NCBI GenBank assembly: GCA_001189215.1
Contig: LFCR01000004.1
Coordinates: 22,153-86,152 of the forward strand
DNA: 64,000 bases
Reading direction: 5' to 3'
From: Parcubacteria bacterium C7867-008
Lineage (GTDB): Bacteria > Patescibacteriota > Minisyncoccia > Phycocordibacterales > Phycocordibacteraceae
Made by a program: the position numbers and the translations under genes. The notes below the pieces were generated by a model. The model was not told where the DNA came from, did not search any database, and saw nothing but the letters and a program-made list of their open reading frames with translations. This document shows, one piece after another, positions 5,066-56,206 of the stretch. Within the stretch, counting starts at the first letter, position 1. Each line of letters begins with the position of its first letter.

Positions 5066-6708
5066 TGTTTTGAAGAACGTTTCTTGTGTGTCTTGTTTGG
5101 TTTCAGATCTCCTTTCACTGACGTAGTGCCACGCTCTGGTATTTCAAGAGAGACGCGGATATGTCTGCGTGCCATACTGGTGCGCGCGTAATCAAGCCAC
5201 TTAGTGGTTGGGTGTGCTGATGCCTTCTCAAGAATCTCCACTACGTCACCGTTGCGAAGTACCGTATCAAAGGAAACCATCTTGCTGTTCACCTTTGCTC
5301 CATACATATGGTTGCCTAGTTCGCTATGAATAGCATAGGCAAAGTCGATCGCCGTTGAGTTGATCGGGAGATCTATAACGTCACCCTTTGGAGTAAACAC
5401 AAATACACGGTGGGAGAAGAAGTCTTCACGCAAACCCTGTACAAAGTCTTCACTACCCGCAGTCGGTGCATGTGCATCCGCAAGCTCAGAAAGCCAGCGT
5501 GGTGATTCTTGAACTTTCTTGGCTTTCGCTTTAGTCACTGATGTTGGAACAACAGGTAATGTACCTTTCCCTCGAGAAAGATTCAGAAGGCTTGGTACGA
5601 GACCGCGCATCCATGAGAAGGAGAGCCGTTCAAAGGCAACACGCTGTGCTTGTTTCTCCATCGTCTTGCCTTTTTCACCTAACTGTTTATAGGACATGTG
5701 CGAGGCAATACCGTACTGCGCATTCTGGTGCATCTCCTCGGTGCGAACCTGCACTTCAACGATACCTGCATCCCCGGTGATGATGGTGGTGTGGAGAGAC
5801 TGATACCCGTTTGGTTTTGTGAAGGATATGTAGTCTTTAAATTCTCCCGGTAGCGGTCTCCAGAGTGAATGGATAACACCAAGCACGGTGTAGCAATCAT
5901 CAACCGTTGGTACTATGACACGAAGCGCTGCTATGTCATGAATTGCAGAGATATCATCATTCTTGCGTACCAACTTTTGGTGTAGGCTCCAGAGTCCTTT
6001 CATACGGATGTCCGTACGGAAATTCTTTAGAGCACGACGAGCAAGTGCATGCTGCAATTCTTTTTGTACACGAATAAGACCCTGCTCTGTTTCTTTTGTC
6101 TTAAGCTTACGAACCTCCATCACGTGCGCATACGCATCGGCATCAACATACGGGAAGGAAAGATCTTCAAGATCACGCTTTACAAGACCCATACCAAGAC
6201 GATCTGCGAGTGGTGCATATATCTCAAGAGTCTCGAGTGCAATACGCCGACGCTTCTCCTCAGGCACATGCTCAAGAGTGGTCATGTTGTGATAGCGGTC
6301 TGCTAATTTGATGATTAGCACCCGAACATCAGCTGATGTCGCAACGAGAAGACGTCTGAGAGACTCTGCATGGCGCTCTGCGCCCCGATACTTATGTTTT
6401 CCGAGCTTAGTAACACCTTCAACAAGGAAGCGCACGTCAGAGCCAAATTCTTGCTGTACTTGTTCTTCGGTAATACCCGCATCTTCCACCGTGTCATGGA
6501 GGAGACCAGCAGCAATAGTGTCTGCATCCATACCGAGTTCAGCAAGATGCTTAGCAACGGCAGCAGGATGGAGGAAATACTGTTCGCCAGAATAGCGCTT
6601 ATGGTCCTTGTGCGCTTCTTCTGAAAAGGCATATGCCTTTCGTATGAGCGTCTCCTCTTCCGGAGAGACGTCTCGCATGGCTGCCAGGATTTCCTTGACG
6701 GTCGTCAT
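5062..6708 (-). CDS. rel: RelA/SpoT-family bifunctional (p)ppGpp synthetase/hydrolase (short; no ACT domain)
   Basis: HD hydrolase motif LLHDTVEDAG, synthetase block, and TGS domain are present. The start is moved to the internal ATG (MTTVKEIL) at 6708. Confidence 0.85.
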   Translation of the reverse strand: MTTVKEILAAMRDVSPEEETLIRKAYAFSEEAHKDHKRYSGEQYFLHPAAVAKHLAELGMDADTIAAGLLHDTVEDAGITEEQVQQEFGSDVRFLVEGVTKLGKHKYRGAERHAESLRRLLVATSADVRVLIIKLADRYHNMTTLEHVPEEKRRRIALETLEIYAPLADRLGMGLVKRDLEDLSFPYVDADAYAHVMEVRKLKTKETEQGLIRVQKELQHALARRALKNFRTDIRMKGLWSLHQKLVRKNDDISAIHDIAALRVIVPTVDDCYTVLGVIHSLWRPLPGEFKDYISFTKPNGYQSLHTTIITGDAGIVEVQVRTEEMHQNAQYGIASHMSYKQLGEKGKTMEKQAQRVAFERLSFSWMRGLVPSLLNLSRGKGTLPVVPTSVTKAKAKKVQESPRWLSELADAHAPTAGSEDFVQGLREDFFSHRVFVFTPKGDVIDLPINSTAIDFAYAIHSELGNHMYGAKVNSKMVSFDTVLRNGDVVEILEKASAHPTTKWLDYARTSMARRHIRVSLEIPERGTTSVKGDLKPNKTHKKRSSKH

Positions 6709-47169: not shown

Positions 47170-47214
47170 TGCGGGCCGTTAGCTCAGTTGGTAGAGCGCT
47201 TCATTTGCAATGAA
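47170..47214 (+). pseudogene. truncated tRNA-Ala(UGC) gene, 5' half only (acceptor 5' strand, D-arm, anticodon stem-loop TTTGCAA)
   Basis: GCGGGCCGTTAGCTCAGTTGGTAGAGCGCTTCATTTGCAATGAA. No T-arm or acceptor 3' strand downstream. Overlaps the 3' end of the recombinase gene. Confidence 0.55.
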
Positions 47215-48685
47215 ATAACTTCTCGTCAAAAAGGAAGAAATAGAGACTGTGCTGCTCCCGTGTGTTGAGCTTGGTCCATATAGAATATGGCCTTTCGACC
47301 AACGTCTTTGATTTCTTTAGAGCAGTTTGAAATGGAATCGCAAAGTCCAATTTCGCACCCGATTCTGCCTCCAGTCCCTCTATCTCGCGGGCAGTCTGCT
47401 CCATTTCATGTTCGTATACATCCCTCAACTGTTCTGTCTTTGCTCGATAGGCCATATCAGCTAAGCCTCGTAGTTTCTCCCGTAACTTCTCGATTTTATG
47501 CGCATGAGTTGCCTCACGTTTTCCAACCTCAGCGATCTCCTCTTTCCAAACCGCTCTAAATACCTCCTCTACAACTTTAGAAACAGAAGGTTTGAGCTTC
47601 GAGGCGTGCATAACCTTTAAGAAATTACCTTCCAGCTCGGCTTTCTTTATAGACTTATTTTTAAAAACACATCCGGCAGTTTTACAAAGATAATACGGGT
47701 ATCTGTTACCATTATGGTTCTTACTAAAGGCTGCTGTTAATGATGCGCCACATACGCAGTTAATTAAGCCGCGCAAAGGGAAGTCAGATGATATATCCTG
47801 GCGCACCCATTTTGATACCTGAACCTTTTGAAGCCGCGCCTGAGTGGCTTCATAAGTGTTTGGAGAAATAAGTCCTTTATGGTGGCCCGGTCTGCGGCTA
47901 ACCTCCCATTCGATGTGCTCCACATAACCAGCGTAAAAAGGATCTTCAAGTAAGCTAGTAACTTGGGTGATATAGCTTTCGGGCGCCGGCCTCTTCCAAA
48001 AGCCTTTATCAATTAGATAGCGCGCCATATCAACCTTACGGACTAGCTTTCCATCAGCAAAGGCCTCTAGGGCCGGTTTAAGCACGTCCAAGCCCTCCCT
48101 GGAGGGCTCCAGGACCTTTGTGGTCTTGTTTCTTTGGTAGCCACGTTTTGTACCGCCAATGCAGTAGTAACCCGCCTCCATGCGCGCCTTCATTTTCTGT
48201 ATAACCTGTCTTCTGTTTTGCTCTCGCTCAAGCTGAGCCTGTGCTGCATGTATGGTCTCTATAAACCTAGCCTCGGGACCTTCGTTAAATGCAAAGTTAG
48301 GGCTTTCTGGTCGAGCTCCCCTAGCCTCAATTTCTAACCTGAGTTCAAGATAAGCCTGAGTGTCGCGAGCAATACGCTTCATGTCATCAAACAAAACAAC
48401 GTAACTTCTATGCGGGAACTTATCCAAGTACTTCAAGAGTTGAACAACACCAGCTCTGTTCCTAAAATCCCCGCCGCCCGTGAAGACATCTTGGAATACC
48501 TCGTCAATCTGATAGCTTCTTTGTTGCGCGTACTCTCTACAGCGAGCCTCTTGTGCTTCCATCCCATGACCTTCAGACGCCTGCTTGTCAGAAGAAACCC
48601 TGCAATAGATAACCGCATGCTCCTCAACAGAAGCTGATGTGGGTTGCAGTGTAATGTTACTTTTTTGTTTGGGCTTTTTGGACAT
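47201..48685 (-). CDS. large serine recombinase (integrase)
   Basis: N-terminal resolvase catalytic motif AVIYCRVSSDKQ, recombinase domain, zinc ribbon (CVCG...CKTAGC), and a C-terminal coiled coil. Confidence 0.85.
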   Translation of the reverse strand: MSKKPKQKSNITLQPTSASVEEHAVIYCRVSSDKQASEGHGMEAQEARCREYAQQRSYQIDEVFQDVFTGGGDFRNRAGVVQLLKYLDKFPHRSYVVLFDDMKRIARDTQAYLELRLEIEARGARPESPNFAFNEGPEARFIETIHAAQAQLEREQNRRQVIQKMKARMEAGYYCIGGTKRGYQRNKTTKVLEPSREGLDVLKPALEAFADGKLVRKVDMARYLIDKGFWKRPAPESYITQVTSLLEDPFYAGYVEHIEWEVSRRPGHHKGLISPNTYEATQARLQKVQVSKWVRQDISSDFPLRGLINCVCGASLTAAFSKNHNGNRYPYYLCKTAGCVFKNKSIKKAELEGNFLKVMHASKLKPSVSKVVEEVFRAVWKEEIAEVGKREATHAHKIEKLREKLRGLADMAYRAKTEQLRDVYEHEMEQTAREIEGLEAESGAKLDFAIPFQTALKKSKTLVERPYSIWTKLNTREQHSLYFFLFDEKLFHCK

Positions 48686-48944
48686 AGCTGTCTATTTCAT
48701 TTCGTGTGATCGTTCTGCAAAACTCTTCTAGGTATCGCAGTTGCTCAAGTACTTCTTCATCACTACTTCGATAATCATTAAGGATGTTACGAAAACGCTC
48801 TATTTTGATTATAGACCTGGATTCATGAGCAAACTGAGGCTGCCTGATATCAGCCTCAACGTTTACAAATGTTAACAATGGTTTTTTACGGTTTTTCCGG
48901 GTCATTTGTGTGACCTCGCAAGATAGAAAAGCAAAAAACTCCAA
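48657..48944 (-). CDS. small hypothetical protein upstream of and overlapping the recombinase start (possible regulator or directionality factor)
   Basis: The ORF overlaps the recombinase start by 29 nt. An internal ATG at 48905 gives an 82 aa product. Confidence 0.4.
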   Translation of the reverse strand: MEFFAFLSCEVTQMTRKNRKKPLLTFVNVEADIRQPQFAHESRSIIKIERFRNILNDYRSSDEEVLEQLRYLEEFCRTITRNEIDSYVQKAQTKK

Positions 48945-49157
48945 AACCAGATGCGCCTCTTATGAGGTGCACTTAGTTTTGGAGCCTTACTACTTACGGT
49001 GTCTTCCGTTTGTTGATCACGTCTTGCGACGCGTCCTATTGGCCTGTTTCTTTTCGCCGGCGGGGCCTGCTTAGAGTATAACCCAAAAGTACTGCATGCT
49101 AGGATATGCTAGGAACCAGCGCCTAAACCTACCAATCTGGTAGGCATGGCCAAATAA

Positions 49158-49311
49158 AACCTACGCGAGCAGAAGCGGCCTCATAGGCTGGCTCTACTCG
49201 CGTAGGTCGGGTGTCTCGAAAGGGCCCCGGGTGATGTCCGAAAGGGTGTCATCGCCGGTTCTGTGGGGCCGCTTCTGCGTACCTACAGATACGGATTACA
49301 AAACCTACGCG
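49158..49311. repeat. cluster of direct and inverted repeats: aaacctacgcga x2 direct plus one inverted copy, and a gcagaagcggcc/ggccgcttctgc inverted pair
   Basis: Seen directly, with mutually exclusive pairings. It sits in a 375 bp non-coding gap inside the putative element. Confidence 0.5.
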
Positions 49312-49318
49312 AACTAAT

Positions 49319-49537
49319 ATGAACACAAGAAAAGACGGACTTCTATCCGTAAAGGATTGGACCAGGAATGAGTATGGCCGGAATGCGCTGATCGCGTTAC
49401 TTGGTGGCCTAGTGCTCAATATGTCAGGTTATACGATTGGAGAGGTGTTTGGTTCAATACTGGCTCTGCTTGGGTTTGGATTAGGGGTAATATGGGCCTA
49501 TTTGAAGATAAGCAAGAAGGAGCCGGCATACAAATAA
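49319..49537 (+). CDS. small membrane protein (72 aa)
   Basis: Two TM helices. Confidence 0.4.
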   Translation: MNTRKDGLLSVKDWTRNEYGRNALIALLGGLVLNMSGYTIGEVFGSILALLGFGLGVIWAYLKISKKEPAYK

Positions 49538-49595: not shown

Positions 49596-50789
49596 GTGTA
49601 CATGGATGCAAACACCCTACTCGAACTTATTCAACTGCTTGAAGCAGACGAAGGGCAGTTTACTATTGGCGCCCGCATAGAAGAGATAAGGACGCTTCTT
49701 TCTCAGAACGATCCAGCACAAAGTACAGCAATATCTACAAAACTAACCGAACTATTTACCGAAATAGCTTCCAGTAGGGCAAACCTTTTTAGCCAGACAG
49801 AGCTCGCAATCCTCAAAGGTCTCGATGCGGTTGACTACTTCGGAAGTGGATTGACCCAAGCACTTACAGAAATTACATCTGGATCAAAGACATACGAGCT
49901 TACATCTCGGCTTAGCGAGTTCTACACAGAGCGCAGTACAAAGTACAACAAGCTAGTCCAAATGAAGAACTCCATGCTGGAGAATGGCTTGGTAGCATAT
50001 GAACAAGAAGAAGATGAAATTGCTCTTACTATCCCAGGAAAGGAGGTGGATGCCTCAGAGCTCGCAGAGCATCTAAAGACATTTTCTGAATTCCTTCGTG
50101 CGGTTCAGGAGTGCACGCTTCCAGCAGGCCAAACGCCAACACCGGCAGAGATTGTGCGTGTAAGTCGAGGTAGCCTGAACTTTTTCGCGCAGGTAGATCC
50201 TGCAACACTAAAGGCTGTTCTGGAGATTATCGGCTCCCTCGCAACAATTTACCTTGCTGGAGTTGATATACGTAAGAAATTCAACTCAAAAACTCCTTTA
50301 AGTGAAGATGAGCAGGCCTCAATAAATCAGCTGGCTGAGACAATAGCGCAGAAGCGGGTGGATGCCTTTGTGGCTGAGACGGCTGCAAAACTGGCTAAGG
50401 ATAATCATGAACTCGGAAATCGAGTAAGTCGTTATTTGAAAATCCTTATAAAGTGGATGCCGTTAGGCATACATCTTGAGGTTGTCGTTGCAAAGACCGT
50501 TGAACCTGTCGACCTTAAAACAAGTGAAGGTAAGCAGATAAGGGCAAAACAGGCGACACTTCTGAAGGTAAATGAGATGTATAGCCTACCTATGGAACAC
50601 CTCAAGCTCCCTGAACCGCAAATAGCCGAGCAAGACGTAGCTATTCCGGCAGAAGAACCAACTGTTCCAATTGAGCCAGAACAAGAAGTGCCTATCGAAC
50701 CAGTGGCGCCCGCTGAACCTGAGAAGCTAGAACCAATGACAGAAAAAACTGTCGAAAACAGTCCTGAGCCAGATGAGCCAAGTGCGTAA
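49596..50789 (+). CDS. hypothetical alpha-helical protein with an acidic Pro/Glu C-terminal tail (397 aa)
   Basis: First gene of the three-gene operon. No catalytic motifs. Confidence 0.55.
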   Translation: MYMDANTLLELIQLLEADEGQFTIGARIEEIRTLLSQNDPAQSTAISTKLTELFTEIASSRANLFSQTELAILKGLDAVDYFGSGLTQALTEITSGSKTYELTSRLSEFYTERSTKYNKLVQMKNSMLENGLVAYEQEEDEIALTIPGKEVDASELAEHLKTFSEFLRAVQECTLPAGQTPTPAEIVRVSRGSLNFFAQVDPATLKAVLEIIGSLATIYLAGVDIRKKFNSKTPLSEDEQASINQLAETIAQKRVDAFVAETAAKLAKDNHELGNRVSRYLKILIKWMPLGIHLEVVVAKTVEPVDLKTSEGKQIRAKQATLLKVNEMYSLPMEHLKLPEPQIAEQDVAIPAEEPTVPIEPEQEVPIEPVAPAEPEKLEPMTEKTVENSPEPDEPSA

Positions 50790-50802
50790 ATGAAATCATT
50801 AA

Positions 50803-51417
50803 ATGATCTGGTATTACCACCATCATCCTGAAGTTCTTTCGCTCGTAAAGGATTTGGCTACGATATCAGCGGCCATAATTGCTTCATACGTTGCTCTTGC
50901 AGGTTTAGGTGCTTGGAAAAGACAATTGCACGGAAAGGAAGACTATCAATTGGCGAGACGTTATTTACGCGAGGTATATCGTTTGCGCAACGGTCTTAAA
51001 TCAGTAAGAAATCCTTATATATCAGTAGGAGAAATGCATGCAGCATTGAAGGAAAGCGGTGAAGAAAACCCAGACCCTATCGCCGATAGAAAGAAAACAG
51101 ACTTCGCTGTCTACAGCCGAAGATGGGAAGAAGTAAAGCAGGCGTCAGTTGCTCTTGATGTCGAGCTTCTCGAAGCAGAGGTACTCTGGGGCAAAGAAGC
51201 TGTTTCTAAGCAGAAGCCCTTGCGTCAAAAATCCAACGAGCTATTTAGTGCATTACAACAGCATCTAAATGAACGTCCGCGTGTGAATATAGATGATTTA
51301 CTGTACGACGCAGGCGATAAGGATAAATTCACTCTTCAAGTTGAGGAAGCTATAAAGCCCATAGAAGAATACTTGGCCCCGCATTTGAAAATAGAAGGAA
51401 GAATCTCAACAAGCTAA
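50803..51417 (+). CDS. hypothetical membrane-anchored protein (204 aa, one N-terminal TM)
   Basis: Its stop overlaps the next start (ATGA). Confidence 0.55.
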   Translation: MIWYYHHHPEVLSLVKDLATISAAIIASYVALAGLGAWKRQLHGKEDYQLARRYLREVYRLRNGLKSVRNPYISVGEMHAALKESGEENPDPIADRKKTDFAVYSRRWEEVKQASVALDVELLEAEVLWGKEAVSKQKPLRQKSNELFSALQQHLNERPRVNIDDLLYDAGDKDKFTLQVEEAIKPIEEYLAPHLKIEGRISTS

Positions 51418-52151
51418 TGATTTCAAGAACCCGTCTCGACCGGATCGCTTTTCTTTCGTTTCAAAATGCTTTGCGTCTGCATCATGATGCAATAATCCTC
51501 TTTAAGGAGAAGAGTTATCCATCGGCTTTTTTCCTTTCAATACTTGCGCAGGAAGAGATAGGGAAAATGCACCTTGTTAATGATCAGTCATGGCGTTCTG
51601 GAGAAAATGAAGCTGGGTTGGCTGAAATCAAGGACGAAGTCAAAAAGAAAAAATACCAGGCAGAATTGGAGAGTATGGAAGAATATGTAATTAAGGCTCT
51701 GTATCAACATCCACTTAAGCAAGGACACTTTTATCGTAATTCTCCAGCGGAAGAGCTGTGGATTCCGAAGAAAGGGAAACTCAGAAAGGAGTACCAAGGC
51801 ATCTGGGATGGAATGCTTGAGGCAAGAAAACAAAACGCTGTGTATGTTGGCTTTGCAAGAAGGAGAGGGAAGATAGATACCACTAGACTTCACCATCCTT
51901 GGGAAATTACGAACGGAATGGCCGCAAGTCATATCACCAGAGTAAATGATTATCTATTGGTTTTTGGGTTGGGTTTAAGATATACGTCCTATGCGTATGA
52001 GAACGAGGAAATAGTTTCAATGATTAAGCATAGACGCTTTTTGAAGGAGATTGCTGCTAGTTGGATGCGTAGCGGTACGTTAGCTCAGAAGGAGATAGAG
52101 AAGCTCGAAAGGGCATTAAAGGATCCAATAGTTTCTGACGCTCGATTTTAA
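51417..52151 (+). CDS. AbiV-like abortive-infection family protein (putative)
   Basis: N-terminal FQNALRLHHDAIILFKEKSYPSAFFLSILAQEEIGK resembles the AbiV family signature. Assignment is from memory of the family alignment. Confidence 0.4.
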   Translation: MISRTRLDRIAFLSFQNALRLHHDAIILFKEKSYPSAFFLSILAQEEIGKMHLVNDQSWRSGENEAGLAEIKDEVKKKKYQAELESMEEYVIKALYQHPLKQGHFYRNSPAEELWIPKKGKLRKEYQGIWDGMLEARKQNAVYVGFARRRGKIDTTRLHHPWEITNGMAASHITRVNDYLLVFGLGLRYTSYAYENEEIVSMIKHRRFLKEIAASWMRSGTLAQKEIEKLERALKDPIVSDARF

Positions 52152-52301
52152 ATCCTCTTCTGTGGTAGCAGATGGGAGAAATCCTTAGTGTTCCGCAAGG
52201 GCTAATTGCAATGGAATGCACGTTTGATAGTAGTCCCAGAAGCGAGATAGATAGCTTTTTAAGGAGTTCAAAGTCTTGATTGATATGTCCACCCAAACAA
52301 G

Positions 52302-52330
52302 AAAAGACCCCGCAAGGGTCTTTTCTTGTT
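52302..52330 (+). terminator. hairpin aagaccc-cgcaa-gggtctt plus ttcttgttt
   Basis: Perfect 7 bp stem plus T-run. Confidence 0.65.
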
Positions 52331-52355
52331 TCAATCACAACCATATACTTATGAC

Positions 52356-52862
52356 ATGGAAGGCCCTCCCCCAAAGCTCGATAAGCAACCTGTAAACTCA
52401 GAAGATATAGCAAACCCGAACAGAATATTTGAGTGGGGTTTTATGCCAGACAATACTGATGTTCCAACAAAACCAGAGAATGTATACAGACAAATCAAGG
52501 TAGAAGGAGTCGATGATCTTAATGAGAGTGGTGTGGTACGAAATGCAGGAAGTGCAGGAAAAGGACGAGTACGTAAATACGGAGACCGTGTGTATTGGAC
52601 ACAAGGTAAAGAGGGAGAATTTCATAATGTACAACCAGGCCACGCGGTACTTGAAGCACCGCTATCTGTTGTAAGTTCCCGTGTGGTGACTGCAGAGGAC
52701 ATCATTGGTATTCATGTACGCAATGAAGCAGGAGAGGTTGAGAACCGCGCCCGCGCCATACCTGAAGTAGCTGTTGATGCATCAGGTACTGAGCAGAAAC
52801 CAGAAGAAGGTTCTAATCTAGAAGATGTTCGAAATAGGCTTGGTTTGTCTCCAAAGGAGTAA
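52356..52862 (+). CDS. hypothetical protein (168 aa)
   Basis: The track ORF starts at a TTG inside the terminator; it is trimmed to the ATG at 52356. Confidence 0.45.
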   Translation: MEGPPPKLDKQPVNSEDIANPNRIFEWGFMPDNTDVPTKPENVYRQIKVEGVDDLNESGVVRNAGSAGKGRVRKYGDRVYWTQGKEGEFHNVQPGHAVLEAPLSVVSSRVVTAEDIIGIHVRNEAGEVENRARAIPEVAVDASGTEQKPEEGSNLEDVRNRLGLSPKE

Positions 52863-52872
52863 TTTAGATTCT

Positions 52873-53055
52873 ATGCACACTGAATTAATAGCTGGAGCAG
52901 CATATTTGTTTAATTCAGGTCTACGCGAAGGAATGAATGATCCCATTCACGCGCTGTATACAATGGTTGGTATTGCGGTGCTGGTTGTGGCTGGAATCTC
53001 CGTTGGAGTGTATAGGAACAGACAAAAAAGAATGAAGAAACGTGATTCCTGGTAG
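52873..53055 (+). CDS. small membrane protein (60 aa)
   Basis: Single TM plus basic tail. Confidence 0.35.
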   Translation: MHTELIAGAAYLFNSGLREGMNDPIHALYTMVGIAVLVVAGISVGVYRNRQKRMKKRDSW

Positions 53056-53056
53056 A

Positions 53057-54181
53057 TCAAGCGCGCTTGAATATAAAGCGTGAAAGTACAAGAAAGCTTT
53101 CAACAGCAATAATGAGCGCAGCAATTGCCTGCGCCAATATGTACCAAACTCCTAGGTAGTGCACGAGAAGGAATACAATTCCCGTATTTAGAACAAGATT
53201 AATGGAAGCAACAAGCAAGTGTAAGGGAACTTGTATTGCAGTAGATTTTTGATGCTTGTAGTTGAAGGTCCAGTACTTGTGGAGAAGGAAGTTAGCTATT
53301 CCTGAGGTTGCAAAAGCAACAATTGATGAGATTAGATACCAGACATGGGAGATGTCGGTAAGGAGGTAGAGGACAGTAACATTAACCAACACGCTTATAG
53401 CTCCTGTAGTGAGGAAACGTAATGCCTTAGGAACCTCTTTACCCATGGGGGCGCTATGTATACCAAGTCTGAAGAACACGATCGCTAGGAGGCAATATAT
53501 GCCATGTCTGGCACGTATCTTCTTTCCTTCCGTGACGGTACGCGGATGGTAGGTGATTGGCACTTGAGCAACGGTACCTGCGTGCTGGAGGATATATGTC
53601 ATCTCAATAGCATCAAATACGAAGTCGTCACTAGGAGCTTCTAGGAGTGCTGGTATGCGCTCTCGAGGGAAGACTTTGTAGCAACACGGAACGTCCTTAA
53701 ATGAGCTACTGAAGGCAAGATTATAAAACGAGGAAACAACACGACCTCCAAAAAACAGCATGCGATTGCGATGAGCATCTTCTTCGGTAAGAGTGCGGTA
53801 TCCAAACACGGTATCTACCTTTCCTTCAATGATCGGAGCAAGTAAAGAAGGATACTGACCTGGATCAATCTCAAGGTCTCCATCTTGAATGATGCAGTAT
53901 GCACCGGTTGCATTACGAAGACCTTCCTTAACCGCACCTCCTTTGCCGAGGTTCTGGGGAAGATACACAACCTGTACGGTATTCCCTGCATCACCAGATG
54001 AAAGTGTACCCAATGCTGCGTGTGTTTCTTCGTTAGATCCATCATCCACAACAATAATCTCTTTGGACCAGCCAGAAGGAAGTCCTGTTGCAATGACTCG
54101 TTCAACAACCAATGCAATAGTGTCAGCTTCATTGAAGCAAGGAATGATTACACTCAGGAGTGTTTTCGGAGTGTTACTCAT
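53057..54181 (-). CDS. family 2 glycosyltransferase (Dpm1/GtrB-like) fused to a GtrA-like C-terminal TM domain
   Basis: LSVIIPCFNEA...VVDDGS GT2 motifs. C-terminal 4 TM GtrA-like region. Confidence 0.75.
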   Translation of the reverse strand: MSNTPKTLLSVIIPCFNEADTIALVVERVIATGLPSGWSKEIIVVDDGSNEETHAALGTLSSGDAGNTVQVVYLPQNLGKGGAVKEGLRNATGAYCIIQDGDLEIDPGQYPSLLAPIIEGKVDTVFGYRTLTEEDAHRNRMLFFGGRVVSSFYNLAFSSSFKDVPCCYKVFPRERIPALLEAPSDDFVFDAIEMTYILQHAGTVAQVPITYHPRTVTEGKKIRARHGIYCLLAIVFFRLGIHSAPMGKEVPKALRFLTTGAISVLVNVTVLYLLTDISHVWYLISSIVAFATSGIANFLLHKYWTFNYKHQKSTAIQVPLHLLVASINLVLNTGIVFLLVHYLGVWYILAQAIAALIIAVESFLVLSRFIFKRA

Positions 54182-55775
54182 AGAATTTTACGAGTGCATA
54201 CTTCCCAGACCGCACCACAGCTCTCTTCTCACAAGACGCAACACCTTCCGTGAAGTCCGTCATATCAATGAAGCCGTATTGAAGATCATGTGCCTTTCCA
54301 TAGTCTGCAAAGGCAACACAATCCTTTGTTTTAAGTACATCACGTACTTCGTTGTATCTAGCAAACCACTGGTCCGCTGCGTCCCCATCATATAGAGCCA
54401 CGTTACCATCCTTAGAAGACACGTATGTTGGCTTATTAGCGTATGCGCGTATGAGATTTGCTTCACCATTTGGATTAGCAAGAATCATAGTTTGAGGTCT
54501 AAGAAGAGTATCAACTTCAACGAGTGCAGAGATGAGTTCCTTTGTATCTTTAGACTCCCTATATCCGTCACTAAGCCCCTCAACAACATTCATTACAGAT
54601 GTCTGCGCGCAAAGTATGCCTATGAGTAGTACAGCAAAGATGACCTTCATCCTGCGACTAGTTCCAAACTTAGCCGTGAAAAGTATGTATCCATACGTAC
54701 CAACAAGAACCATTGATGAAAGGTAGAACCATACAGAAGCTCGAGCCAACAGATACTTTGCATACGGTGTGAACTCAAGACCAACACCAATAAGAGAAAG
54801 GATAAGCGTGCTCCACCACAGAGCCATCCACACAGTCATAGAAGGTCCTTCTGGTAAATTTTTCTCTCTACGACACCAGAACCATAGTCCAAGCACGAGT
54901 GCTACATAAATAATCTGCTTACGGAGATAGTGCAGAAGAAGATAGGACCACGAGTGCAGTACTGCCGTGTAGTGATCAAGGATTATGGATGGATTGGGAG
55001 GTGAGAACTGTCCTATACGGAAAAACACATCATAGAGCGCAAGGGGAGCAGCAGCTAAGAACACGAGTCCGTATGCAATGAACTCAAGCTTGATAGAACG
55101 TGTTCGTATAACCTCAGCAAACAAAACGATCATCGCCACATGGAAGAAGATAACGGGATACCAGTTCGATAGAAGACCAAGCAAGGCAAAGAAGATAAAG
55201 AACTTCTTTCGTGAGCCCCCCTCAACTGCTTTGAAATACAGAATGAGCAACCAAACAATAATTCCAAGTCCTAATTCCTTAGGTACAAAGCCTTTCACTA
55301 AGAACCCCCAGCCAGACAATCCCAAGGATATAACGGGAATAATGCTAACTAGTGCAATACAGAAGGCGAGTACTCTGTTACGTGTTGTATAGAGAACCAA
55401 TGAATAGACTCCGCTCAGGAATATAAGAAGGGAAATAGTAGATATAAAAATACTCCAATCCAGTACTCCTACGCCAAAGAAGTCTCCAATACGAACAAAC
55501 ACGGCATCGATAAACAACTGCCCGGTTGGCCAGGAACGATTATTTTGGAACATGACATCGTTCTCAAAGTTTCCTGCGTACGAGGTAGAGAACTCAGTCC
55601 AATGGACTGCATGTACGAAGGCGTCAGAAGAGAGTTGATATTTAAGGGGTACTCCAGAAACAGCTAGAAAGGAGATGTTAAGCAGGAAGGCACAAAAGAA
55701 TACGATAGCGATAAGAATAAGATCAGTCTTGATCCGTGCGAGTCCCTGCCAGTGCATTGCATGGAAGTATAGCAA
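54174..55775 (-). CDS. polytopic membrane protein, GT39/GT83 (PMT/ArnT)-like glycosyltransferase candidate
   Basis: More than 10 TM helices plus a C-terminal soluble domain. Overlaps and is co-oriented with the GT2 gene. Confidence 0.45.
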   Translation of the reverse strand: MLYFHAMHWQGLARIKTDLILIAIVFFCAFLLNISFLAVSGVPLKYQLSSDAFVHAVHWTEFSTSYAGNFENDVMFQNNRSWPTGQLFIDAVFVRIGDFFGVGVLDWSIFISTISLLIFLSGVYSLVLYTTRNRVLAFCIALVSIIPVISLGLSGWGFLVKGFVPKELGLGIIVWLLILYFKAVEGGSRKKFFIFFALLGLLSNWYPVIFFHVAMIVLFAEVIRTRSIKLEFIAYGLVFLAAAPLALYDVFFRIGQFSPPNPSIILDHYTAVLHSWSYLLLHYLRKQIIYVALVLGLWFWCRREKNLPEGPSMTVWMALWWSTLILSLIGVGLEFTPYAKYLLARASVWFYLSSMVLVGTYGYILFTAKFGTSRRMKVIFAVLLIGILCAQTSVMNVVEGLSDGYRESKDTKELISALVEVDTLLRPQTMILANPNGEANLIRAYANKPTYVSSKDGNVALYDGDAADQWFARYNEVRDVLKTKDCVAFADYGKAHDLQYGFIDMTDFTEGVASCEKRAVVRSGKYALVKFYE

Positions 55776-55801
55776 AGATATCTATGCGTTATACTGACGC
55801 C

Positions 55802-56206
55802 ATGAACACGAAACTCATAAAACTATTCTTTATAACGTTGCCTATATTGGCAGTAATAGACTTCTGCTGGGCCGGCATACTCGCTACTGATTTCTATCGC
55901 GGACAGGTGGGAGATTTACTCTCAATGAATCCAATCCTTCCTCCACTGGTTCTCTTCTACATTATCTACACGGCAGCGGTTGCATACTTTGTAATCAGTC
56001 CTGCACTAGCTGTTCGTTCATACAAGTTACTTGTCATTAACGCAGCGTTCCTTGGTCTGACCGCATACGGTACCTATGATCTCGTTACGCTTGGTCTCAC
56101 ACCCGGATGGACCCCCCTTGTTACCGTTGTAGATATTATTTGGGGTATGGTACTTACCACCGCAGTTTCTTCTATCGTGTACGCAATCGCTATACGTTGG
56201 AAGTAG
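55802..56206 (+). CDS. small integral membrane protein (DUF2177-like?)
   Basis: 4 TM helices. The family name is tentative. Confidence 0.45.
   Translation: MNTKLIKLFFITLPILAVIDFCWAGILATDFYRGQVGDLLSMNPILPPLVLFYIIYTAAVAYFVISPALAVRSYKLLVINAAFLGLTAYGTYDLVTLGLTPGWTPLVTVVDIIWGMVLTTAVSSIVYAIAIRWK

What the first reader, a model, noticed from the sequence alone, without database searches (positions are those of the whole stretch)
49596..52151. Three-gene operon ending in an AbiV-like protein: candidate uncharacterised defence system on the element
Three tightly spaced or overlapping genes make up the operon: a 397 aa alpha-helical protein with an acidic Pro/Glu tail, a 204 aa single-pass membrane protein, and a 244 aa protein. 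The stop and start of the last pair overlap as ATGA.

The N-terminus of the 244 aa protein, FQNALRLHHDAIILF...SAFFLSILAQEEIGK, resembles the AbiV abortive-infection family signature. It is carried next to a serine integrase, which is typical defence-island cargo. AbiV is normally a standalone gene. The two upstream partners are not a known combination.
Basis: partly seen in the sequence, partly recalled or inferred. Interest (0 to 1): 0.6.

Follow-up and report, generated by a model that had tools for sequence, protein, structure and literature searches.

The report
AbiV defence gene with unrelated neighbours
A small mobile element in a Parcubacteria genome carries a genuine AbiV-type anti-phage toxin gene, but the two genes in front of it never accompany AbiV, or each other, in any other locus I examined, so this looks like mixed cargo, not a new three-gene defence system.

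Summary
The three co-oriented, tightly packed ORFs exist as described, with one correction: the B/C junction is TAATG, a 1-nt overlap, not ATGA.

- **Gene C (244 aa)** is a clear AbiV-family HEPN protein. It scores 70 bits on Pfam PF18728 and 61 bits on NCBIfam TIGR04498; both cut-offs are 27.
- **The trio is not a conserved system.** I examined 26 other loci with a B homologue, 9 with an A homologue and 8 with a C homologue. No two of the three families were ever neighbours.
- **Gene A** belongs to an unnamed family of at least 319 clusters. Where flanks were available, its neighbours were housekeeping genes.
- **Gene B** is a membrane-anchored four-helix-bundle protein. About 12 of 27 loci (a hand tally) place it beside defence or mobile-element genes, and twice it lies inside a type I restriction-modification operon.
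- **What recurs with C** is a homologous large serine integrase and, divergent from it, the orphan LOOT RNA (Rfam RF03000), inserted at tRNA or tmRNA genes.

Best reading: this is mosaic cargo on a LOOT/serine-integrase integrative element, and C is the only recognisable defence gene. [quoted passage not shown] Interest is modest.

The parts
47171..47215 (+). 5' two-thirds of a tRNA-Ala(TGC) gene (acceptor 5' strand, D arm, anticodon arm). It overlaps the 3' end of the integrase gene and is the probable attachment junction of the element.
   Evidence: The sequence is GCGGGCCGTTAGCTCAGTTGGTAGAGCGCTTCATTTGCAATGAAAT. Rfam gives a partial tRNA match of 25.5 bits, below the gathering score. ARAGORN calls no tRNA here. 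No 3' half was found anywhere in the window. The geometry matches L018, L034 and L036, where an intact tRNA or tmRNA overlaps the integrase 3' end.
47201..48685 (-). Large serine integrase (494 aa).
   Evidence: Pfam: Resolvase E=4.5e-22, Recombinase, Zn_ribbon_recom. PHROG 95 integrase E=1.8e-55. It is 36-39% identical to the integrases next to C's closest homologues in L034, L036 and L169.
48657..48944 (-). Small basic ORF (95 aa from TTG; 82 aa from an internal ATG) directly upstream of, and overlapping, the integrase start. A role as an excision or regulatory factor is possible; its function is unknown.
   Evidence: ORF list. There is no significant family hit, and BLASTP of the element's ORFs against the related loci compared matched only the integrase and C, not this ORF.
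49120..49253 (+). LOOT RNA (Rfam RF03000). It is divergent from the integrase and lies upstream of the cargo genes on the same strand.
   Evidence: cmscan 61.5 bits against a gathering score of 46.4. The region folds far better than shuffled sequence, z = -7.3. Unlike the four other copies compared, it is not followed by a U-tract.
49319..49537 (+). 72-aa ORF with one predicted membrane helix. It is the first ORF after LOOT.
   Evidence: ORF list and hydropathy. No family hit.
49596..50789 (+). Gene A. It is a member of an unnamed, metagenome-only family of about 350-400 aa. The fold is mostly helical, and the Pro/Glu tail is unique to this copy.
   Evidence: The full HMMER scan found 319 representative clusters at E<=1e-3, 115 at E<=1e-10 and 21 at E<=1e-30. 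None of 77 members has a convincing Pfam hit: ten families matched one member each, all at E>=0.0014. The AlphaFold2 model has pLDDT 66.7. No homologue locus has B or C nearby.
50803..51417 (+). Gene B. It has an N-terminal membrane helix that runs into a cytoplasmic four-helix bundle. The family is uncharacterised and often lies in defence or mobile-element neighbourhoods.
51417..52151 (+). Gene C. An AbiV-family HEPN protein and a predicted RNase toxin or abortive-infection effector.
   Evidence: Pfam PF18728 E=2.7e-19, 70.3 bits, cut-off 27.1, covering profile positions 8-151 of 155. TIGR04498 61 bits, cut-off 27. PADLOC AbiV E=8e-8. Solved AbiV structures 9bj5/9bj7 match at E=4e-4 over profile positions 21-54. 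Invariant residues across 20 relatives are N17, H22, D24, E46, E47, G49, K50, H98, K101, Q102, K138, Q139, Y143, V144 and G145.
52295..52331 (.). Perfect 16-bp inverted repeat with a 5-nt loop, 144 nt after C's stop codon. It is the likely terminator of the cargo transcript.
   Evidence: the repeat finder I10, 100% complementary; sequence.

Best explanation
The 2.5-kb stretch is mosaic cargo on a small integrative element in Parcubacteria bacterium C7867-008. It is not a dedicated three-component system.

The element's backbone is a large serine integrase and a divergently oriented LOOT RNA, inserted at a tRNA-Ala gene. Downstream of LOOT, on the same strand, lie a 72-aa membrane ORF, then A, B and C, ending at a strong hairpin. 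They are probably co-transcribed (inferred).

C is an AbiV-family HEPN protein. By analogy with lactococcal AbiV, it most likely acts as an RNase toxin that cuts ribosomal or other RNA during phage infection and so aborts it (inferred from family membership).

B is a membrane-anchored helical-bundle protein from a separate family. That family is found mostly on its own and often lies among defence or mobile-element genes. It is plausibly an independent defence-related or membrane-acting gene (inferred).

A belongs to a third, unrelated family of unknown function whose other members sit among housekeeping genes.
For: - **C is AbiV.** HMM scores are well above curated cut-offs. It matches solved AbiV structures. 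Family-wide invariant residues are retained.
- **No co-occurrence around B.** HMMs of A and C were searched at E<=1 against all ORFs of the loci then fetched (26 other non-redundant B loci plus three A loci). C was found only in the window, and A only in its own three loci. BLAST clustering of B's neighbours found no recurrent partner family.
- **No co-occurrence around C or A.** C's five closest independent loci and three distant viral loci contain no A or B. Nine other A loci contain no B or C, and their neighbours are housekeeping genes.
- **What does recur with C.** A homologous serine integrase (36-39% identity) is present in L034, L036 and L169. LOOT lies within about 100 nt upstream of the AbiV-containing operon in the same three loci.
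- **LOOT follows the integrase, not the cargo.** 8 of 9 LOOT loci have a serine recombinase within about 3 kb, always in divergent orientation. This includes three IMG/VR contigs with no A, B or C.
- **B's neighbourhoods.** They include type I restriction-modification operons (L017, L019), a PADLOC candidate PDC-M68B protein with an SNF2 helicase (L016), Mrr (L021), AIPR (L001), a weak AbiU2-like HEPN (L013), ParE and PIN toxin-antitoxin pairs (L002, L009), and serine recombinases (L003, L018).
- **Lactococcal mechanism.** AbiV is reported as an rRNA-cleaving HEPN RNase held in check by the abiV2 RNA (10.1101/2024.05.05.592566).
Against: - B and C are translationally coupled (TAATG), and A-B are only 13 nt apart. 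In this genome the three are therefore expressed together and could cooperate.
- Lactococcal AbiV alone is toxic and needs an antitoxin. No antitoxin is identified here, so a neighbour (B, A or LOOT) could play that part.
- In three other loci B abuts proteins that may be HEPN-like: L013 (weak AbiU2 hit, Rx5H motif), L019 (RNNVAYH motif only) and L001 (weak DUF5677 hit).
- Sampling is thin. Only about three A loci have useful flanks, and only five close C loci were seen.
- The right end of the element is not defined.
- C lacks a canonical Rx4-6H motif, so its RNase activity is an inference.
Confidence: 0.7

Rival explanations
1. The three genes form a dedicated three-component defence system. 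A and B would sense infection or regulate the AbiV-like effector.
For: Same strand, a 13-nt gap and a 1-nt overlap, no internal terminator and a hairpin after C. C is a genuine AbiV-family protein.
Against: No pair of the three families is adjacent in any other locus examined: 26 B loci, 9 A loci and 8 C loci. A's relatives sit among housekeeping genes. A and B have no PADLOC hit.
Confidence: 0.05
2. B and C form a lineage-specific two-gene module. The membrane-anchored B would restrain, localise or be triggered together with the AbiV RNase. B could be a protein antitoxin or a membrane co-effector, loosely like Csx28 with the HEPN RNase Cas13b.
For: - B and C are translationally coupled by a TAATG overlap.
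- Lactococcal AbiV is toxic without its partner, and there is no intergenic space upstream of C for an abiV2-like RNA.
- B lies directly beside possible HEPN-like proteins in L013, L019 and L001.
Against: - None of the five closest C homologues has a B-like neighbour, and none of 26 other B loci has an AbiV-family gene, even at E<=1.
- The HEPN assignments for B's neighbours are weak. hhalign against the C profile is negative, and there are no PADLOC hits.
- The Csx28 match is no better than matches to dozens of generic helical bundles.
Confidence: 0.15
3. LOOT RNA is the RNA partner of the AbiV-like toxin, a type III-like antitoxin analogous to lactococcal abiV2. The functional unit would then be LOOT plus C, with A and B as passengers.
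For: - LOOT lies upstream of the AbiV-containing operon in 4 of 6 independent loci of this AbiV subfamily: the window, L034, L036 and L169.
- Lactococcal AbiV needs an upstream non-coding RNA.
- In the window LOOT is on the same strand and is not followed by a U-tract, unlike four other copies.
Against: - LOOT occurs without any AbiV gene in 5 of 9 loci: L014, L018, L102, L072 and L118.
- It tracks the serine integrase instead: 8 of 9 loci, always divergent.
- In L034, L036 and L169 it is on the strand opposite to AbiV.
- The AbiV loci that lack this integrase family (L037, L171) also lack LOOT.
Confidence: 0.08

Closest known systems
Lactococcus cremoris AbiV (abiV1 HEPN RNase plus abiV2 RNA; PDB 9bj5/9bj6/9bj7; Zhu et al., bioRxiv 10.1101/2024.05.05.592566)
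   Same: C matches the family HMMs above their cut-offs. It shares the N-terminal helix and the EExGK signature, which align to the solved protein. It is carried as accessory, mobile DNA.
   Different: - Sequence similarity to the lactococcal protein is detectable only over about 34 residues.
- By my reading of the two sequences (no residue-level alignment of this stretch was obtained), the catalytic 91-RNHKSKH-97 motif corresponds to YQHPLKQ (H98, K101 and Q102 invariant), with no conserved Arg.
- C and its two closest relatives carry an extra insertion of about 25 residues.
- The gene immediately upstream is a protein-coding gene that overlaps C, not a small RNA.
- The host is a CPR bacterium.
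Defence genes carried as cargo of integrase-bearing genomic islands at tRNA or tmRNA genes (for example, defences mobilised with serine-recombinase SCCmec elements, PMC11470126)
   Same: There is a large serine integrase at a tRNA-derived junction, with variable defence cargo beside it. Related islands at tmRNA/SmpB carry AbiV together with NACHT, AAA_13 or DUF2326 genes.
   Different: - The element is very small; in L036, LOOT to the end of the integrase gene spans about 3.5 kb.
- It is found in Patescibacteria.
- It carries a conserved structured RNA (LOOT) divergent from the integrase operon. I found no published description of this link; only two papers in the searched library mention 'LOOT RNA' at all.
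Restriction-linked ORFs embedded in type I restriction-modification operons (such as PrrC, and the HEPN families in R-M operons noted by Anantharaman et al. 2013, PMC3710099)
   Same: B homologues sit between or just after hsd genes, with overlapping or near-zero spacing, in L017 (HsdM-B-DUF4760-HsdS) and L019 (HsdR-HsdMS-B-247 aa).
   Different: - B has no nuclease or HEPN signature. It is a membrane helix plus a helical bundle.
- Only 2 of about 27 loci show this arrangement.
- No function has been tested.
Cas13b with its accessory membrane protein Csx28 (HEPN RNase plus small membrane protein)
   Same: The layout is conceptually similar: a small membrane-anchored helical protein is encoded next to a HEPN-family protein.

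Membership tests
AbiV family (Pfam PF18728 HEPN_AbiV / NCBIfam TIGR04498) | Full-length match to the family HMM above the curated cut-off. | tested here: met
   PF18728: 70.3 bits against 27.1, residues 13-178 on profile positions 8-151 of 155. TIGR04498: 61 bits against 27. PADLOC AbiV: E=8.1e-8, partial match.
AbiV family | N-terminal helix and EExGK signature shared with the structurally solved lactococcal AbiV. | tested here: met
   A profile of C and 19 relatives hits 9bj7_A and 9bj5_A at E=4e-4, aligning LHxD...PSAFFLSILAQEEIGK with LIKD...SIT(I)IEEVGK. E46, E47, G49 and K50 are invariant.
AbiV family | Catalytic Rx4-6H motif (91-RNHKSKH-97 in L. cremoris; the R91A mutation abolishes RNase activity). 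| tested here: inconclusive
   C has YQHPLKQ at residues 96-102, with H98, K101 and Q102 invariant and no conserved Arg 4-6 residues upstream. It also has K138-Q-N-A-V-Y143. No residue-level alignment to the lactococcal motif was obtained. Both Anantharaman et al. 2013 and Zhu et al. state that the motif is not conserved across the family.
AbiV family | HEPN four-helix fold and dimer. | not tested
AbiV system (type III toxin-antitoxin-like, per Zhu et al.) | A non-coding RNA (abiV2) immediately upstream that inhibits the RNase. | not testable with these tools
   There is no model of abiV2 to search with. In the window, C's start overlaps B's stop, so there is no upstream intergenic space. The nearest structured RNA is LOOT, 2.2 kb upstream.
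AbiV system | Abortive-infection or phage-resistance phenotype, and toxicity of the protein. | not testable with these tools
   This needs experiments. The host is an uncultivated CPR bacterium.
   No A or C lies within about 6 kb (less where a contig ends sooner) of 26 other B loci. No B or C lies near 9 other A loci. No A or B lies near 8 other C loci.
Known or candidate defence systems in PADLOC-DB v2 (for A and B) | Match to any component HMM. | tested here: not met
   A and B have no hits at E<=1. They also have no significant Pfam, NCBIfam or PHROG hits.
Large serine recombinase (integrase at 47201-48685) | Resolvase catalytic domain plus Recombinase domain plus zinc ribbon. | tested here: met
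   All three Pfam domains score above their cut-offs. PHROG 95 integrase E=1.8e-55.
LOOT RNA (Rfam RF03000) | Covariance-model score above the gathering threshold over the full model. | tested here: met
   61.5 bits against 46.4, model positions 1-121.
Csx28-like membrane partner of HEPN RNases (for B) | Specific structural or sequence similarity to Csx28. | tested here: inconclusive
   [not shown]

The most novel reading that the evidence does not exclude
The conserved unit here is not the protein trio. It is an RNA-plus-recombinase backbone: the orphan LOOT RNA is a functional component of a family of tiny serine-integrase elements in CPR bacteria. It could control integrase or cargo expression, or serve as the RNA partner that keeps cargo toxins such as the AbiV RNase (and perhaps B) in check. 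In the window, LOOT lacks the U-tract seen in other copies and may read through into the A-B-C cargo. If so, a long-orphaned structured RNA would gain a function, and CPR AbiV would be a type III-like RNA-protein pair.
Probability: 0.12. Interest if true: 0.65.

Novelty: new member of a known kind. Interest (0 to 1): 0.3.

Why it matters
- It adds a divergent AbiV-family member, lacking a canonical Rx4-6H motif, to the sparse catalogue of defence genes in the reduced genomes of CPR/Patescibacteria. It also shows how the gene travels: on very small serine-integrase elements at tRNA or tmRNA genes.
- It warns against reading tight operon spacing as evidence of a multi-component system.
- It yields two by-products worth testing. 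The first is an uncharacterised membrane-anchored family (B) that turns up inside restriction-modification operons and other defence neighbourhoods. The second is a consistent physical link between the orphan LOOT RNA and large serine integrases, which makes LOOT's function experimentally approachable.

Tried and rejected
- **LOOT as a guide-like RNA for the integrase.** I compared the longest exact matches between each LOOT copy and the 300 nt around the integrase 3' junction in 8 loci. They were no longer than matches to random windows of the same locus. Rejected.
- **Hidden AbiV or HEPN homology in B's tight neighbours.** hhalign of the C-family profile against L001 259 aa, L019 247 aa and L013 190 aa gave probabilities below 1%. 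PADLOC and PDB sequence searches were uninformative.
- **B as a DUF4760 relative.** hhalign gave E=0.004 and probability 8.6%, confined to the membrane helix. Not accepted.
- **Finding the 3' half of the split tRNA-Ala to fix the element's right end.** No match was found in the window, and direct-repeat searches gave only chance-level hits.
- **A or B as phage genes.** Pattern-based scans found no relatives in IMG/VR.
- **A as an orphan.** The first, word-indexed search found only two relatives. This was an artefact of candidate capping; the full HMMER scan found 319 clusters.
- **AlphaFold database search.** The afdb50 fold library was unavailable.
Full report
**Observation**

The window comes from Parcubacteria bacterium C7867-008, a CPR metagenome-assembled genome. 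Exact-sequence hits P0001, P0029 and P0032 carry locus tags AB203_00440, AB203_00435 and AB203_00445.

- A is 49596-50789. That is 397 aa from a GTG; the deposited product is 395 aa, which fits a start at the ATG at 49602.
- B is 50803-51417 (204 aa).
- C is 51417-52151 (244 aa).

All three are on the + strand. A and B are 13 nt apart. B's TAA stop and C's ATG share one base (TAATG), not the ATGA overlap reported. The consensus scan finds no terminator-like site on the + strand inside the cluster. A perfect 16-bp hairpin lies 144 nt after C (I10).

A large serine integrase lies just upstream on the opposite strand, at 47201-48685. It has Resolvase, Recombinase and zinc-ribbon domains and matches PHROG 95 at E=1.8e-55.

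**Gene C is a real AbiV-family protein**

- Pfam HEPN_AbiV scores 70.3 bits against a cut-off of 27.1, covering almost the whole profile.
- NCBIfam AbiV_defense scores 61 bits against 27.
- The PADLOC AbiV model gives E=8e-8.
- A profile of C and 19 relatives hits the solved lactococcal AbiV structures (9bj5, 9bj7) at E=4e-4, across the LHxD...EExGK region.
- Twenty relatives share invariant N17, H22, D24, E46, E47, G49, K50, H98, K101, Q102, K138, Q139 and Y143-V-G.

A canonical Rx4-6H motif is not evident. By my reading of the two sequences (no residue-level alignment of this stretch was obtained), the place of the lactococcal 91-RNHKSKH-97 is taken by YQHPLKQ. This fits published remarks that the motif is not conserved in the AbiV family and that an alternative upstream His is conserved (PMC3710099; bioRxiv 10.1101/2024.05.05.592566). 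RNase activity for C is therefore an inference from family membership, not something shown here.

**The current view of AbiV**

The 2024 preprint from the Moineau and Shi laboratories reports the following:
- Lactococcal AbiV is a metal-independent HEPN RNase that degrades rRNA in vitro.
- Cloning abiV1 alone selected mutant clones, and the protein appeared toxic to E. coli.
- Protection against phage needs an upstream non-coding RNA, abiV2, which inhibits the RNase. The authors describe this as type III toxin-antitoxin-like.

The relevant question becomes what, if anything, restrains C.

**Genes A and B have no known family**

Neither has a significant hit in Pfam, NCBIfam, PHROGs or PADLOC.

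Gene A:
- The word-indexed search found only two relatives. That search scored only the 8,000 candidates sharing the most words with the query, and I suspect the low-complexity tail crowded out true relatives.
- An exhaustive HMMER scan of 1.84 billion cluster representatives found 319 clusters at E<=1e-3 and 115 at E<=1e-10. Nearly all are 350-400 aa and aligned end to end.
- None of 77 members has a convincing Pfam domain: ten families matched one member each, all at E>=0.0014. Of ten sampled clusters, the only source name was "hypothetical protein".

Gene B:
- It has 28 homologues in the protein search and 23 genome loci. These span Parcubacteria, Saccharibacteria, Acidobacteriota, Gemmatimonadota, Proteobacteria, Planctomycetota, Clostridia and a Synechococcus.
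- The AlphaFold2 model is confident (pLDDT 90.3). An N-terminal hydrophobic helix runs straight into a four-helix bundle.
- A cluster of basic residues immediately after the membrane helix (WKRQLHGK...ARRYLR) suggests that the bundle is cytoplasmic. This is an inference from the positive-inside rule.

**Is the trio, or any pair, conserved? No**

I built HMMs of the A, B and C families. I searched them at E<=1 against every ORF of at least 50 aa in the 33 loci fetched up to that point (26 non-redundant B loci other than the window, plus three A loci), with up to 6 kb of flank on each side (8 kb in the first look-ups; less where a contig ended), and in window 40-60 kb. C was found only in the window. 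A was found only in its own three loci.

BLAST clustering of B's neighbours produced no recurrent partner family. The largest shared cluster was four serine recombinases.

C's closest independent homologues are L034/35 (52% identity), L036 (47%), L037 (55%), L169/170 (44%) and L171/172 (42%). None of these, nor three distant IMG/VR loci, contains A or B.

Nine other A-family loci contain no B or C. Where flanks exist, the neighbours are housekeeping genes (NUDIX, GNAT, a trypsin-like peptidase, MgsA, an HI0933-like flavoprotein), often beside a tRNA gene.

A caveat applies: many A loci are short contigs, so A's context rests on about three informative loci.

**What does recur with C: the element backbone**

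In L034, L036 and L169 the AbiV gene lies 0.8-1 kb upstream of a large serine integrase that is 36-39% identical to the window's. The 3' end of that integrase gene overlaps a tmRNA gene in L034 and L036; all three loci have smpB just beyond it. L037 also has a recombinase next to AbiV.

In each of L034, L036 and L169, an Rfam LOOT RNA (RF03000) lies on the opposite strand within about 100 nt upstream of the operon that contains AbiV and the integrase.

The window has the same two backbone parts. LOOT is at 49120-49253 (61.5 bits against a gathering score of 46.4). It is 435 nt from the integrase and divergent from it.

LOOT also lies next to B homologues in L014 and L018, where there is no AbiV. 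In L018 it again lies divergent from a MerR-like gene, a serine integrase and a tRNA.

Scanning IMG/VR with a LOOT sequence pattern and then a covariance model built from five copies gave three strong hits (L102, L072, L118). Each has a serine recombinase within about 3 kb in divergent orientation, and none has A, B or C.

Overall, 8 of 9 LOOT loci carry a serine recombinase, and 8 of 8 of those are divergent. Only 4 of 9 carry AbiV and 3 of 9 carry B. LOOT and the integrase therefore form the backbone, and AbiV, B and A are interchangeable cargo.

**The window element**

The integrase's 3' end overlaps the 5' two-thirds of a tRNA-Ala(TGC) gene at 47171 to about 47215. The T arm and 3' acceptor strand are missing, and ARAGORN calls no tRNA there. 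This is the same geometry as the intact tRNA or tmRNA overlaps in L018, L034 and L036, so this is very probably an attachment junction.

I could not find the tRNA's 3' half anywhere in the window. The right-hand boundary is therefore undefined. It lies somewhere between the hairpin at 52331 and the glycosyltransferase gene at 53057.

Here the cargo sits downstream of LOOT on LOOT's own strand, unlike in the five loci where genes lie between LOOT and the integrase on the integrase's strand. The window's LOOT also lacks the U-tract that follows the four other copies compared. Read-through from LOOT into 72aa-A-B-C is plausible but unproven.

The LOOT region folds far better than shuffled controls (z = -7.3). 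An 18-nt segment downstream (49261-49278) can pair with the 5' arm of LOOT's long hairpin (I9).

**What is B?**

B's neighbourhoods are variable but often defence-related or mobile:
- In L019 it follows HsdR and a fused HsdM/S gene, with overlapping reading frames.
- In L017 it lies between HsdM and a DUF4760 gene followed by HsdS.
- In L016 it follows a DUF2326 protein, which matches the PADLOC candidate PDC-M68B at E=8e-57, and an SNF2 helicase.
- In L021 it precedes Mrr.
- In L001 it is two genes from an AIPR Abi protein and close to a replication-initiator gene.
- In L013 it follows a weak AbiU2-like HEPN.
- In L002 and L009 it lies beside ParE and PIN toxin-antitoxin pairs.
- In L003 and L018 it lies beside serine recombinases.

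By my hand tally from these calls, about 12 of 27 loci have such neighbours within roughly three genes. The rest show housekeeping or unannotated genes. I have no background rate, so this is suggestive of a defence-island gene rather than proof. B was not found in IMG/VR.

**Mechanism I commit to**

- *Shown:* C is an AbiV-family member. The genes share an operon-like layout. The families are distributed independently. The integrase and LOOT form a recurrent backbone.
- *Inferred:* C is an RNase toxin that aborts phage infection in the manner of lactococcal AbiV. B is an independent membrane-anchored accessory gene with a probable defence-related role. A is unrelated cargo. The cluster is co-transcribed from the LOOT side.

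I give this 0.7.

The main rival (0.15) is that B and C are functionally coupled in this lineage. It rests on the translational coupling, on AbiV's known need for a restraining partner, and on B's occasional adjacency to possible HEPN proteins. Those HEPN calls are weak, however: Rx5H motifs in L013 and L019, negative hhalign results and no PADLOC hits.

The idea that LOOT is an abiV2-like antitoxin gets 0.08, because LOOT follows the integrase rather than AbiV. The full three-component system gets 0.05.

I also tested and rejected a guide-RNA-like role for LOOT: it shows no above-chance complementarity to the integrase-proximal junction.

**Novelty and interest**

The finding as filed reduces to a new, divergent member of a known defence family, sitting as cargo on a small integrative element. 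That is useful but ordinary, so I score interest at 0.3.

Two leads are more interesting. One is the uncharacterised B family that appears inside restriction-modification operons. The other is the consistent LOOT-serine integrase linkage. From memory only, LOOT is an orphan motif from the Weinberg et al. 2017 survey, named after the OD1, OP11 and TM7 lineages; I could not verify this with the tools. The paper's searchable text mentions "Loot" only as an author name in its reference list.

Noticed in passing
window 49120-49253 (+); also L014 5799-5920, L018 6877-6988, L034 5233-5349, L036 5812-5932, L169 5793-5911, L102 5001-5120, L072 8399-8518, L118 5232-5345: The orphan LOOT RNA (Rfam RF03000) is physically linked to large serine recombinase genes. 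8 of 9 LOOT loci have one within about 3 kb, always in divergent orientation, with 0-6 cargo genes in between. Three of these loci are on IMG/VR 'viral' contigs. I found no published description of this link; only two papers in the searched library mention 'LOOT RNA' at all.
   Followed up: partly
window 49156-49312: An 18-nt segment downstream of LOOT (49261-49278) is 89% complementary to the 5' arm of LOOT's long hairpin (49169-49186). A perfect 13-nt direct repeat, AAAACCTACGCGA, occurs at 49156 and 49300, just before the 72-aa ORF. Together with the missing U-tract, this could form an alternative, read-through-controlling structure.
   Followed up: no
window 47171-47215 (+): A truncated tRNA-Ala(TGC) gene overlaps the integrase 3' end. 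The 3' third is replaced by integrase-derived sequence, and no 3' half was found elsewhere in the 64-kb window. The tRNA appears to be disrupted by the insertion rather than reconstituted.
   Followed up: partly
L017 1008-5337 and L019 986-7310: B-family genes are embedded in type I restriction-modification operons. The layouts are HsdM-B-DUF4760-HsdS, and HsdR-HsdM/S-B followed by a 247-aa protein with an RNNVAYH (Rx5H) motif. Gaps are near zero or the frames overlap.
   Followed up: partly
L034 1-9700, L036 5800-9600, L169 1-9100: The tmRNA/smpB site is a recurrent island position in Patescibacteria. It carries AbiV plus, variously, a 1,595-aa NACHT protein, an AAA_13 ATPase, a DUF2326 protein, and a conserved ~180-aa protein (weak HTH_28 hit in L036) that swaps position relative to AbiV between loci.
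   Followed up: partly
[not shown]
   Followed up: partly
L012 5216-5472 (+): A group I intron (Rfam RF00028, 73.8 bits) lies about 540 nt upstream of a B homologue (6010-6579) in an unclassified bacterial MAG.
   Followed up: no
window 51000-56000: G+C content drops to 0.42-0.45 across C, two small ORFs, a GT2 glycosyltransferase gene (53057-54181, -) and a 533-aa multi-pass membrane protein gene (54174-55775, -). The surrounding sequence is about 0.47-0.50. The horizontally acquired region may therefore extend beyond the AbiV cluster.
   Followed up: no
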